A stretch of DNA of 63,839 nucleotides, the filler included, from Collodictyon triciliatum (Eukaryota), in the NCBI GenBank assembly GCA_043381765.1. It is 9 parts of 9 records of this genome, joined end to end, with 100 filler letters (N's around TTAATTAATTAA, not from the genome) between each part and the next. Parts side by side here need not be neighbours in the genome. Positions count along the whole stretch, not along the records: positions 10,377 to 20,650 come from JBHJMP010002733.1; 8 more parts are not named here. One strand, 5' to 3'. A model generated the notes under the pieces. It was given only the letters and a program-made list of their open reading frames with translations. It was not told the DNA's origin and ran no database searches. Below are positions 10,377 through 19,901 of the stretch, piece by piece; the first letter of the stretch is position 1; every line of letters begins with the position of its first letter. Made by a program: the position numbers and the translations under genes.

Positions 10377-13300
10377 AACATCATATTTACTGCACATACG
10401 ATCGAAATGGTCGAAAATCATATCCAATAACATGACAAACTCATTTGGTGATGAGTAATATACAATATCAGCAAATTCTTGAATTTCACAAAACAAAACG
10501 GAGACGCTTTTCTGCAAAATAATAATAACGATAAATAGGTCATGACAGTAAGCAACGTAGGAACTGAAACGCCACCATAACTTCAAAAAGGTTTGCGTTA
10601 AACAAATACCTCATTATTTGCTATCACCCTTACTCCATCCCGGAATTTATTGACGATAAAAGAGGGCAGCATGTTTTCAAGAATGCCCTGAGATCGAAAA
10701 TTAAGAAAAAAAAAAGTATACAATTTGTCATAGTTCATGATAGAAACTTCAAAATTACGCGAGTAATTTTCTTTTCCTTCTTTAGTAGCTGCTGGAGAAT
10801 GAAGTCCTTTCTCATCGATACTTCACTAAAATAAGCCCCATACACCGAAATTCCTATTATCAGAGCTAGGAAGAGAATATTGGCTCCGATATCCAATATG
10901 CTAGATCCGTTTCTAATTTTAATGGCCAAAGGAGGAACTGTTACGCCATATTGGGTATAAGCAAAGAGAAAAAAATGTTTGTAATCTATATTTGCGAATT
11001 TATTAAAATGATAAAAGTGAAGCTTACAAAGCAATTGATATAAATATTAATTCGTCAATCAGAACCAACGGAAGAGCATATTTAAATCGAAGTCCCCCAA
11101 TAATAAATCCAATTAATGGGACAATCGATTGAAACAAAATGGCCTCCGATTTGTTGATCACAAGAAACTTGTGTAATGCACCAGATGTAAGGATGAAATT
11201 ATTTTTCACTTCGATCAATCGTTTTGTATGTTGTAATAATAATAATAATAATAATAATAATAATAATAATAATAATAATAATAATAATAATAATAATAAT
11301 AATAATAATAATAATAATAATAATAATAATAACATAGTTGAGAGGACAAAGGCTACAAACCATTGTGACTGATCCAAAGATAAGGGCAATGGCAACAAAC
11401 ACTTGATAGTGGCGCTTTAGAGTTGTTGTCGTCATGAACAATGTATACATTCCTGCATTTTTTTTCTGTTCAGGTGGTATGCACTCCTGTCCATTAATTT
11501 TACATATATGTATTACCGGATACTATTATTGCTATAGTTCTGTAGCCTGTGGACACTTTTCCATGGTCAGAATCTTGAAAACTGAAGACGAAGCTCGAAA
11601 AATATAGAAAGTATGCAATAGACCAAACTATTCGAGTCTGTTGATAGGAGACCTCAAAGTGAAAATCCTATGGTTCGTAAAAGAGGTTATTCTCGATCTT
11701 AGTAGCAATGACGCGGAAAAGATGATAGGTCACATATGTTATTTCGATGTATGTTGATTACCCTAAATTGCTGTTCCAGCTGGATATCATTATAAAATTC
11801 AAGTGTGAAATTGCTCATTTGTGAATTCTGTTCCAGATGTAAATTTGGGTCTAGCTCGCCGGGACCTTGAGTTTCGGCAGGATTTTTCACCGTAGAAGGC
11901 TTGACGGATATGCGATATAATTGACCATAAAAATGTTTTTTTTTTCGAAATGAGATTATGTGACTGGAATTTCGAAAAGAATATTGAAGGAAAGAGAACA
12001 AGACCAAGAGGACAAACGATTTTTTGTATTCTTTTAAATAAAAAGAAGTATATGTATGTTTATAATTGGGAGAGAGATGAAAACAGAAGAAAAATTACTG
12101 CAGCCCCCTCCTCACGAATAATTTCTATCCTGCAGGGTACAAAAAATGCATTAATTAACCATAAAAAGGTTTCGATGAATCATATATGATATCTATGAAT
12201 GCGGCTGAAAGAAGTGCCTATCGCTAGACTTAGAGGCCGCAAAATTAAAAGATAAGGACTTGCTTAAAATTCATGCGCCATGTAATAAAAGAAAAGCTTA
12301 ATTTTTATGAAAAATTCTAAGAAAGCATTATAATGAGAATCTTACACTCGCAAATCGTTGTCTTTGACATCAGAAGAAATTCTAGGCTCAACTTTTGACA
12401 AGCGGGGCGTTGGTCTCTCAGTAACTTTTGTAATAGCGTGGTGGACATCACTAGGCAAATTAGTGCAAAACTGAATACAAAGCACAATATTACAAGAAAA
12501 AATCACTTTTATCAGTAAATTTATAAATAAAAATAAACTATGTATGTGCTTTGTGTATTTCTCGTCCAATGTCTAAAGGAGTTGGGTTGTATACGTGGCT
12601 CCATCTGTGATACACCAGAGTCAATTCGTATTTAGAAAATGCAACATCTGTAACTATTATTATTCTTATTACTATTGCTATTGCTATTGCTATTACTATT
12701 ACTATTACTATTACTATTACTATTACTATTACTATTACTATTACTATTACTATTACTATTACTATTACTATTACTAGTTCATAATAAGAAAATTCACAAA
12801 GTCAGAACATGAATATAATTTTACTTACATCTTGAAGGTAAGATCAAAAACATAGCATGAAACTGGTATCAATGGCAATCCAACCCAGAAGATCGGCCTA
12901 TGTCGAGGGTACTTGTAAATCAGACACAAGTGACATTCGATGAAAAGTATGTAGTTCTACAAATCCAATGACATTGAGAAATCATAAATAAATAAAAAAT
13001 AGCATTTGATTGATACGAAGGAATAAAACTCACCGTGCAAACATTTCAGTCCCAACATGATAAAAATCTGGACTGATATTATACATGAAAGAATAGACTC
13101 CCACAACAAAAAACCAGGAAGATATGCTCAATATCACAGAGATGACAAACAACCCACTTAATGAATATGCTTCGAACAAGATCTAATGATGTAGACGAGA
13201 TTAGATTTTTTTCGTATTTTTATTGCGAGCAAGCAAAGCCAAGGAGAATCTAATAGAGACATATGCTTGTAGGAAAAAATTATGAATTAATTTAGTACCT

Positions 13301-19300: not shown

Positions 19301-19901
19301 CAAATTCTTTGGAATGAACGACAACACAGTATATTTTGATGTTGTTGTTAAATTAGAGCAATATCTATTTCAAATATAACATGTAAGTGATTGTGTTAAC
19401 TCGGTAAATTACTCCGTGCTTTTTTAGAATTTGATAGATGTTTTATTTTAAATTTATTTTTGAGAAAAAAATATTACTTTAAAGTCGAGTCGCTTGAATC
19501 CCTGTTCAATAAAACTGTTCTATACTGCTCCTGATATACAATACATATGAGCACATAAAAATCAGGCATTTTTTGCCACATATTTTATTATTAATTTCTT
19601 GTTTAGTGTTTATTGTGTTTGTGTCGAGTTGAAGCAATGCAATTAGCTGCGCAATACACATTGCAATATTCAAAACAATTGAAGAAGAAAGACCTGATAC
19701 TCTTAAATGTGAATTGCCATGAGATAATTTACTTTTAAGATTCTCAACAAGAAAATCTTAGTTCAGACAGACCTGGCTAGTTTTGTCGCCTCCATTGACA
19801 ATGCGGTGAAGAAGAGATCCCAAAGGACTCGAGACATTGTAGATCGACTGCATGAGAGACCGACCTGATCTAGATATTGTATGTGCGTATGTCTGTGGCA
19901 T
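10377..19901 (-). CDS. P4-type ATPase (phospholipid flippase) fused to 6TM + class III adenylyl/guanylyl cyclase; 39 visible exons, 3' end cut by gap
   Basis: [78 protein letters not shown], then a linker with FTLEF....LEQQFR, six hydrophobic segments, [12 protein letters not shown] and [11 protein letters not shown]...[16 protein letters not shown]. All junctions can be spliced GT-AG in phase. Confidence 0.9.
11234..11331. repeat. (TAA)n microsatellite in intron
   Basis: Direct tandem trimer. Confidence 0.95.
12652..12776. repeat. (TATTAC)n microsatellite in intron
   Basis: Direct tandem hexamer. Confidence 0.95.

What the first reader, a model, noticed from the sequence alone, without database searches (positions are those of the whole stretch)
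10377..19901. P4-ATPase flippase fused to a membrane nucleotide cyclase
Seen: after ATPase TM10 there is no stop. Exons 12897-12829, 12604-12539, 12450-12346, 12129-12099, 11899-11762, 11667-11517, 11452-11361, 11167-11028, 10900-10759, 10687-10610 and 10511-10377 stay in phase into a 6TM block and a class III cyclase domain. Established: P4-ATPase-guanylyl cyclase fusions are characteristic of alveolates (ciliates, apicomplexans) and are reported in oomycetes. Inference: this host has a standard code, 100-400-nt introns, a fungal-like Tup1, RME-8 and a Roco, which looks unlike those model lineages. The fusion may be older or more widespread than appreciated, or independently derived.
Basis: partly seen in the sequence, partly recalled or inferred. 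Interest (0 to 1): 0.8.

Follow-up and report, generated by a model that had tools for sequence, protein, structure and literature searches.

The report
Flippase–guanylyl cyclase fusion outside SAR
This gene joins a membrane lipid pump to a cGMP-making enzyme, a protein known from malaria parasites, ciliates and water moulds, and here it turns up as one of several copies in a freshwater predatory flagellate from a distant branch of eukaryotes where it has not been reported.

Summary
The fusion is real. A 39-exon minus-strand model (1,451 aa, no stops, 38 of 38 introns GT-AG) runs from an intact P4-ATPase through six membrane helices into a class III cyclase. It stops only because the contig ends where a near-identical paralog collapsed in the assembly.

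The host is a Diphyllatea flagellate (CRuMs, sister to Amorphea): the one eukaryotic 18S found carries both Diphyllatea-specific primer sites. The genome holds at least 8 such genes. Their closest database relatives are fused transcripts of Diphylleia rotans (62-63% identical), paired by paralog group.

Complete paralogs have the alveolate-type inverted guanylyl cyclase. In trees, both halves group with alveolate and oomycete P4GC; origin from the host's own flippases or adenylyl cyclases is rejected. So this is a true P4GC, sharing one origin with the SAR proteins.

A July 2026 survey found P4GC only in alveolates and stramenopiles. Ancient transfer from a stramenopile-side lineage is somewhat favoured (about 0.55) over inheritance from near the eukaryote root (about 0.3). 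Enzyme activity, and one transcript spanning this copy's junction, are not shown.

The parts
10377..19901 (-). P4GC gene, 39 exons modelled, 1,451 aa, cut at the 3' end by the contig end
   Evidence: 0 stops, 38 of 38 introns GT-AG
19478..19901 (-). Exons 1-2, N-terminal tail; exon 1 (19901-19773) and the start codon are uncertain
   Evidence: homology begins in exon 2
12829..19364 (-). P4-ATPase (flippase) module, exons 3-29: LDGET at aa 201, PISLY 370, DKTGT 423, KGAD 592, TGDK 705, GDGGND 825, ten membrane helices
   Evidence: 13 of its introns seen spliced out in contigs of run X1
17340..17354 (-). DKTGT phosphorylation motif (catalytic Asp intact)
   Evidence: sequence
17623..17637 (-). 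PISLY motif of membrane helix 4, diagnostic of lipid flippases
   Evidence: sequence; motif meaning from PMC7858053 passage
11762..12604 (-). Cytoplasmic linker between flippase and cyclase modules (exons 30-33)
   Evidence: the matching stretch is disordered in the model of the Diphylleia relative
10759..11667 (-). Cyclase membrane block M1-M6 (exons 34-37); exon 37 may start at 10912 instead of 10900
   Evidence: six helices in the AlphaFold model of relative P0001
10610..10830 (-). Helical domain and cyclase transducer element (NMLP at aa 1385)
   Evidence: element described in PMC13466520
10377..10511 (-). First 45 aa of catalytic domain C1 (LFCEI, first metal Asp replaced by Glu, as in inverted-type guanylyl cyclases)
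10377..10830 (-). Tract 85-100% identical (introns included) to paralog C5872, 99-100% over the last 104 bases; likely gene conversion and the cause of the contig break
10277..10376 (.). Assembly spacer N44-TTAATTAATTAA-N44 joining unlinked contigs; not part of the gene

Best explanation
A genuine P4GC: a lipid-flippase-like P4-ATPase fused to a 12-helix, inverted-type guanylyl cyclase, descended from the same fusion event as the alveolate and oomycete proteins. It has been resident in Diphyllatea (CRuMs) long enough to expand into at least 8 intron-rich paralogs, most of whose subgroups are shared with Diphylleia rotans. How it most likely works. Shown by sequence: an intact phosphorylation cycle (DKTGT, LDGET, PISLY, TGDK, GDGGND); in complete paralogs, C1 supplies the GTP-selecting Glu/Cys and the transition-state Asn/Arg, and C2 supplies the two metal Asp. 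Inferred (about 0.9): C1 and C2 pair within one chain and make cGMP from GTP. Inferred (about 0.8): the ATPase, with one of the host's CDC50 subunits, cycles through its phosphoenzyme states while binding or flipping phospholipid. Inferred from apicomplexan genetics (about 0.6): that cycle, or lipid state, gates or positions the cyclase, turning membrane-lipid cues into cGMP, plausibly for swimming or prey capture. Most likely history (about 0.55 of the total): an old transfer from a stramenopile-side lineage into the stem of Diphyllatea, before the two sampled species split.
For: Gene model. Host: the one eukaryotic SSU in G000 matches both Diphyllatea-specific primers exactly, 1,625 bp apart against about 1,624 in the paper. 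Paralogs: ATPase and cyclase on one contig in C615, C2019, C839, C1220, C315, C3191 and C5872 (from the ATPase tail onward). Fused transcripts from six labelled D. rotans Trinity loci, four with members over 2,000 aa. Catalytic residues; PDB confirms the inversion (second domain best matches VC1, first matches IIC2), as described for Toxoplasma (PMC6592433). Trees: cyclase core clade of alveolates, oomycetes and Diphyllatea at 100/100; ATPase clade at 100/99 holding none of the 11 host unfused flippases modelled. For transfer: the concatenated mixture tree puts Diphyllatea with the stramenopile-side rows at 95/95, and keeping all SAR-side rows together is rejected, p-AU 0.0165. The host keeps separate Drs2-like flippases that group with animals, fungi and amoebozoans.
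Against: No RNA contig crosses this copy's ATPase-cyclase junction; run X1 covers only 13 of 38 introns, all in the ATPase. The second half of this copy is not assembled with it, and only one orphan C2 (C679) was found for two orphan M7-12 branches. The transfer reading is not robust: placing Diphyllatea outside SAR is not rejected under LG+G4 (concatenated p 0.084; ATPase 0.175; cyclase 0.479). Those groups were named after seeing trees, the outgroups are distant, and several rows are unlabelled. Keeping all GC-fused ATPases (Rhodelphis included) together without unfused ones is weakly rejected (p 0.043), so fissions or extra fusions occurred within this ATPase clade. No activity was measured.
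Confidence: 0.88

Rival explanations
1. Same protein, but inherited vertically: the fusion predates the Opimoda/Diphoda split (at or near the last eukaryotic common ancestor) and was lost in Amorphea, Rhizaria and most other groups.
For: Diphyllatea as the deepest branch of core P4GC costs only 0.66 log-likelihood units in the cyclase tree (p 0.479) and is not rejected in the ATPase tree (p 0.175) or the LG+G4 concatenate (p 0.084). The clade does not sit inside alveolates or oomycetes, and sisterhood with oomycetes alone is rejected (p 0.010). 25-32 of 32-37 intron positions are shared with each of the five complete paralogs, showing long residence. CRuMs and SAR lie on opposite sides of the root (10.1101/2024.09.04.611237). 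A related fusion exists in Rhodelphis marinus.
Against: The mixture-model concatenate nests Diphyllatea with stramenopile-side rows (95/95) and rejects SAR monophyly (p 0.0165). No labelled amorphean or other CRuMs sequence appeared in the clade among the hits, although only 25 proteins could be looked up by name. Many independent losses are needed. The Rhodelphis cyclase falls outside the core clade (joining it rejected, p 0.027).
Confidence: 0.3
2. Independent fusion inside the host lineage, from its own flippase and its own 12-helix cyclase.
For: The host has many cyclases (at least 165 PF00211 matches) and flippases. Independent fusions do seem to occur elsewhere: Entosiphon P0324 joins a different ATPase to an adenylyl-type cyclase, and P0344 has the reverse order.
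Against: Both halves are rejected as sisters of the host's own unfused genes (p 2e-5; p 2e-8). Both group with SAR P4GC, and the catalytic signatures match motif by motif.
Confidence: 0.03
3. The contig comes from an alveolate or stramenopile contaminant (prey), so the gene is an ordinary orthologue.
For: The contig holds only this gene, so it has no physical link to the rDNA. The organism is a predator, and the assembly also holds a bacterial-type SSU.
Against: Only one eukaryotic SSU was found, by two searches (the first used a stricter filter). A different Diphyllatea data set (EukProt D. rotans) has matching paralog pairs with full support. The clade is not nested in any sampled SAR group.
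Confidence: 0.03
4. This particular copy is a truncated or dying paralog, or is transcribed as a stand-alone ATPase.
For: Its 3' half is not on the contig; no RNA spans the junction; one C2 is missing for the pair C2733/C5872.
Against: No stop or frameshift in 39 exons; the ATPase part is transcribed and spliced. The break coincides with a 99-100% identical tract shared with C5872, and C12111 leaves that shared tract at its other end, which is the pattern of a collapsed repeat.
Confidence: 0.08

Closest known systems
Diphylleia rotans EukProt transcripts, Trinity loci DN433 and DN1796 (P0018, 2,063 aa; P0019, 2,038 aa); unannotated, not found described in print
   Same: Same architecture and subfamily; 63% and 62% identity over about 1,400 aligned residues; same LFCEI / KIETVGP / Q[YF]CLFGD signatures
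   Different: A different species. The window copy is a younger duplicate, closest to host paralogs C615 (75%) and C5872.
Oomycete P4GC (e.g. Saprolegnia diclina SDRG_00602, P0039) and bicosoecid P4GC (PMC13466520)
   Same: Intact flippase motifs plus an inverted 12-helix guanylyl cyclase; same clade in both halves
   Different: 37% identity; mostly single copy in oomycetes, against at least 8 here; Cys rather than Ser at the specificity position (QFCLFGD vs QFSLFGD); other side of the eukaryote root
Alveolate P4GC: Paramecium and Tetrahymena GC, Plasmodium GCalpha and GCbeta, Toxoplasma TgGC
   Same: Domain order, C1/C2 inversion and core cyclase clade (100/100)
   Different: 35-38% identity to Colponema and a ciliate-like row. 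About 2,050 aa with no large inserts, against 4,000 or more in Toxoplasma. The flippase motifs are fully intact, unlike several alveolate copies. UGO and SLF partners were not searched for.
Rhodelphis marinus EukProt P014500 (P0177, 2,196 aa)
   Same: P4-ATPase of the same ATPase clade fused to an inverted-type 12-helix cyclase
   Different: Its cyclase lies outside the core P4GC clade (p 0.027), so it may be a separate fusion or an older paralog

Membership tests
P4GC (P4-ATPase-guanylyl cyclase chimera) | N-terminal type-P4 ATPase with DKTGTLT, LDGET and PISLY | tested here: met
P4GC (P4-ATPase-guanylyl cyclase chimera) | Flippase and class III cyclase in one reading frame | tested here: met
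   39-exon stop-free model; exons recovered from a fused Diphylleia transcript protein; control
P4GC (P4-ATPase-guanylyl cyclase chimera) | One transcript across the junction | tested here: inconclusive
   No RNA contig covers this copy's junction; met for six D. rotans loci
P4GC (P4-ATPase-guanylyl cyclase chimera) | Complete cyclase module: M1-6, C1, M7-12, C2 | tested here: inconclusive
   This copy: M1-6 and the start of C1 only, contig ends. Met in five paralogs; six helices modelled in relative P0001.
P4GC (P4-ATPase-guanylyl cyclase chimera) | Inverted catalytic pair: C1 with GTP-selecting Glu plus Cys/Ala/Ser and Asn/Arg, C2 with two metal Asp | tested here: met
   Paralogs C615, C2019, C839, C315, C1220; C1 of near-identical C5872; PDB inversion. 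In the window only LFCEI is visible.
P4GC (P4-ATPase-guanylyl cyclase chimera) | Cyclase transducer element with the Leu-Pro pair | tested here: met
   NMLP at aa 1385
P4GC (P4-ATPase-guanylyl cyclase chimera) | Common descent of both halves with alveolate and stramenopile P4GC | tested here: met
P4GC (P4-ATPase-guanylyl cyclase chimera) | cGMP synthesis, and its dependence on the ATPase | not testable with these tools
   Shown genetically in Plasmodium (PMC7858053 passages); not measured here
P4GC (P4-ATPase-guanylyl cyclase chimera) | Dedicated CDC50 partner | tested here: inconclusive
   CDC50 family matches on 6 contigs; which one binds a P4GC was not tested
Animal-type 12-helix adenylyl cyclase | Lys/Asp ATP selection, metal Asp pair in the first domain | tested here: not met
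   C1 has Glu (KIETVG) and Cys and lacks the Asp pair; the host's true adenylyl-type cyclases form a separate clade

The most novel reading that the evidence does not exclude
The flippase-guanylyl cyclase chimera that controls egress in malaria and Toxoplasma parasites is not a SAR invention. [quoted passage not shown] Flippase-cyclase fusion also seems to have arisen more than once (Entosiphon adenylyl-type, reversed-order P0344), pointing to a recurring lipid-sensing signalling design.
Probability: 0.3. Interest if true: 0.82.

Novelty: new member of a known kind. Interest (0 to 1): 0.63.

Why it matters
The protein type is known, but its range is not. The July 2026 survey devoted to it (PMC13466520) found P4GC only in alveolates and some stramenopiles and placed its origin in their common ancestor. 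Diphylleia, CRuMs, EukProt and Rhodelphis do not occur in its main text, and Diphylleia, Collodictyon, Rhodelphis and Ploeotia do not occur in its supplement. A multi-copy family in CRuMs forces either an origin near the eukaryote root with many losses, or an ancient eukaryote-to-eukaryote transfer of a 2,000-residue, 22-helix signalling protein into a predator.

It also has practical value. Why a flippase is fused to a cyclase is an open question, and recombinant Toxoplasma cyclase domains gave no activity (PMC6592433). These copies are compact (about 2,050 aa), have every flippase and cyclase motif intact, and come from a harmless free-living protist, so they are good material for structure and for testing lipid-to-cGMP coupling directly.

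Tried and rejected
RNA evidence for the junction: no RNA holder is on record. Run X1, whose RNA status is a guess, gave spliced contigs over 13 of 38 introns, all in the ATPase, and nothing below about 15,160. That blank is no evidence either way. X2 and X3 gave only short conserved matches.

Finding this copy's own 3' half: C5872, C12111 and C679 are candidates, but the order cannot be settled from contigs.

ESM Atlas on the 'Ploeotia' cyclase returned only generic cyclase clusters and did not identify its taxon. Our-findings searches by words and by sequence were empty.

Literature: 8 searches. The five aimed at this fusion listed no paper reporting it in Diphyllatea, CRuMs or Rhodelphis; two searches listed only 30 of 4,174 and 40 of 53 papers, and most subscription journals are not held.

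A simple hydropathy scan resolved only three broad peaks in M1-6, so the six-helix count rests on the model of a relative. An extra exon near 13487-13420 was considered and dropped (no GT donor, frame broken).

Rows dropped before trees: near-duplicate isoforms; long branches P0038, P0387, P0275, P0071 in some trees; 4 of 15 host flippase loci under 540 aa. The careful mixture tree for the ATPase alone did not finish, so the LG+G4 careful trees are cited. Paralog models come from my own spliced aligner, which forbids stops, so their lack of stops is by construction; their length and coverage are the evidence. No complex prediction was run, since a flippase-CDC50 pair would pass by likeness to solved structures.
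Full report
Observation. I extended the model upstream by hand to 39 exons, 4,353 nt and 1,451 aa, with no stop and 38 of 38 GT-AG introns of 64-256 nt. Exons are 40% GC and introns 28%. All P4-ATPase motifs are intact. After the last ATPase helix come a linker, a hydrophobic block, the NMLP transducer element and the start of a class III cyclase (PF00211, E 2e-7 on 45 aa). Contigs of run X1 skip 13 of the modelled introns (numbers 4-14, 16 and 18) at the modelled sites, but none reaches the junction. 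As an independent test, a Diphylleia rotans transcript protein that spans the junction recovered 15 of 17 exons exactly when aligned to the DNA. The junction region scored 929 against at most 46 on 20 shuffles. An AlphaFold model of the relative P0001 (mean pLDDT 80.6, pTM 0.52) shows six helices between the linker and C1.

Why the gene stops. The window is a chain of contigs joined by spacers, and C2733 ends at 10377. Paralog C5872 is 50-78% like the window gene upstream of about 10830, then 85-95%, then 99-100% over the last 104 bases. A third contig, C12111, begins with 113 bases 98% identical to C5872 about 1.2 kb further on and then diverges. I infer that two paralogs share a homogenised C1 tract that collapsed in assembly. 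C5872 carries a complete C1 with KIETVGP and QFCLFGDTVNTASRM. Which M7-12 and C2 belong to this copy is open; one orphan C2 was found, on C679.

Host. G000 gave one eukaryotic SSU rRNA, 2,153 nt, and one bacterial-type SSU. A broad eukaryotic primer also hit only that locus. It matches both Diphyllatea-specific primers of PMC6052632 (passages and Table 2 seen) with no mismatch, 1,625 bp apart. The two best database hits of an ATPase exon were D. rotans proteins at 84% and 75%, both fused to a cyclase (2 of 5 hits). Collodictyonids belong to CRuMs, sister to Amorphea (PMC5793813, abstract), on the opposite side of the proposed root from SAR (10.1101/2024.09.04.611237, abstract and passages).

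A family, not a single gene. The five best PF16212 matches in G000, and C315, lie on contigs that also hold a downstream cyclase. Spliced models of C615, C2019, C839, C1220 and C315 run 1,799-1,900 aa to the end of C2 (my aligner forbids stops, so coverage is the evidence). With C3191, C5872 and the window gene that makes at least 8; C4181 is probably the 5' half of C3191, since both group with D. rotans DN8025. The window gene shares 25-32 of 32-37 intron positions with each of the five complete paralogs. D. rotans has six labelled fused loci (P0018 is assigned to DN433 by its name). Host and D. rotans copies pair up across the family with full or near-full support, so the expansion predates their split. 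CDC50 matches lie on 6 contigs.

Cyclase type. In all five complete paralogs C1 has Glu in K-x-E-T-V-G, Cys in Q[FY]CLFGD and the Asn/Arg pair, but lacks the second metal Asp. C2 has both metal Asp (LFSDI, IGD) and lacks the Asn/Arg pair. PDB matches agree: the second domain is most like VC1 and the first like IIC2. This is the inversion described for Toxoplasma, where Glu/Cys or Glu/Ala selects GTP (PMC6592433, passages). The host's other 12-helix cyclases that I modelled (three in the trees) are adenylyl-type.

Origin. The cyclase halves of Diphyllatea, alveolates, oomycetes and a group holding a 'Ploeotia vitrea' transcript form one clade at 100/100 with an unresolved base (36 rows). The ATPase halves fall in a 100/99 clade with a few unfused ATPases from oomycetes, Picozoa and unlabelled sources, and none of the 11 host unfused flippases (61 rows). 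Grouping either half with the host's own genes is rejected (p-AU 2e-5; 2e-8). The fusion therefore shares one origin with SAR P4GC.

Transfer or inheritance. The concatenated LG+C20 tree (33 rows, 1,104 columns) joins Diphyllatea to the stramenopile-side rows at 95/95 and rejects SAR-side monophyly at p 0.0165. The host also keeps its own Drs2-like flippases on the amorphean side. Against this, three LG+G4 tests do not reject Diphyllatea outside SAR (0.084, 0.175, 0.479). Groups were named after trees were seen, and the outgroups are distant. Many rows carry no name: ciliate and oomycete labels for them are inferred from grouping with Paramecium, Saprolegnia, Aphanomyces and Thraustotheca, and the P0271/P0275/P0287 group is unidentified. 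I put transfer at about 0.55, deep inheritance at about 0.3, and the rest on other histories.

Mechanism. Shown: motifs for a full phosphorylation cycle and for a GTP-specific pseudo-heterodimeric cyclase. From the literature: the phosphorylated Asp of Plasmodium GCalpha could not be mutated, and the authors place the ATPase upstream of cGMP synthesis (PMC7858053, passages); CDC50, UGO and SLF are partners in apicomplexans (PMC10275601, passages). Inferred: the flippase module, with a CDC50, handles or senses phospholipid, and its state controls or positions the cyclase. The end of helix 1 reads Q-L where PS flippases have QQ (my alignment to that position is recalled, not from a call), so the lipid is not predictable. 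A role in flagellar or feeding behaviour is a guess.

Novelty. Of PMC13466520 I read the abstract, parts 1-3 of 9, section 4.1 and term passages, and searched its one supplementary file by terms. It reports 177 P4GC genes from 132 species, all alveolates or stramenopiles, from NCBI searches, and none in any other eukaryotic group. I saw it after stating my reading, and it is not independent support. Verdict: a new member of a known kind, with a range extension across the deepest split in eukaryotes.

Noticed in passing
window 10377-10830; L058 (G000:C5872) 1213-3010; L062 (G000:C12111) 1-113: Two P4GC paralogs with unalignable introns elsewhere share a near-identical tract, introns included, over the helical domain and C1: likely gene conversion keeping the catalytic half uniform.
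   Followed up: partly
P0177 (EukProt Rhodelphis marinus P014500): Full 2,196-aa P4-ATPase plus inverted-type cyclase fusion in a relative of red algae; its cyclase lies outside the core P4GC clade. Not in the 2026 survey's text or supplement. Contamination not checked.
   Followed up: partly
P0324 (EukProt Entosiphon sulcatum P035313); unlabelled P0372, P0387: P4-ATPase of a different clade fused to an adenylyl-type tandem cyclase (with MORN repeats in P0324): apparently an independent flippase-cyclase fusion.
   Followed up: partly
P0344 (unlabelled, 2,118 aa): Reverse order: a P4GC-type 12-helix cyclase first, then a P4-ATPase of another subfamily. Could be a gene-calling artefact.
   Followed up: no
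P0395 / P0157 (EukProt Ploeotia vitrea P037457): Core P4GC in a euglenid transcriptome. It groups with environmental sequences next to the stramenopile rows, so it may come from another organism in the culture.
   Followed up: partly
P0386 (unlabelled, 816 aa): Cyclase fragment that is sister to the Diphyllatea cyclases in a FastTree (95), with ETVGP and QYCLFGD; its source could decide the origin question.
   Followed up: no
P0004 / P0015 (Picozoa cluster), P0168, P0214, P0188: Unfused flippases inside the P4GC ATPase clade, in Picozoa, oomycetes and an unlabelled EukProt gene: candidate pre-fusion relatives or fission products.
   Followed up: partly
window 22965-28544 (+): Intron-free 1,859-codon reading frame with leucine-rich repeats and weak Roc and COR-A matches below the Pfam cut-offs, unusual in this intron-rich genome; on a different contig.
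   Followed up: partly
L040-L046 (G000 contigs C1, C1234, C3309, C844, C2876, C1112, C5204): Expanded family of unfused 12-helix adenylyl-type cyclases, in which both domains keep the metal Asp pair in the two placed in trees.
   Followed up: partly
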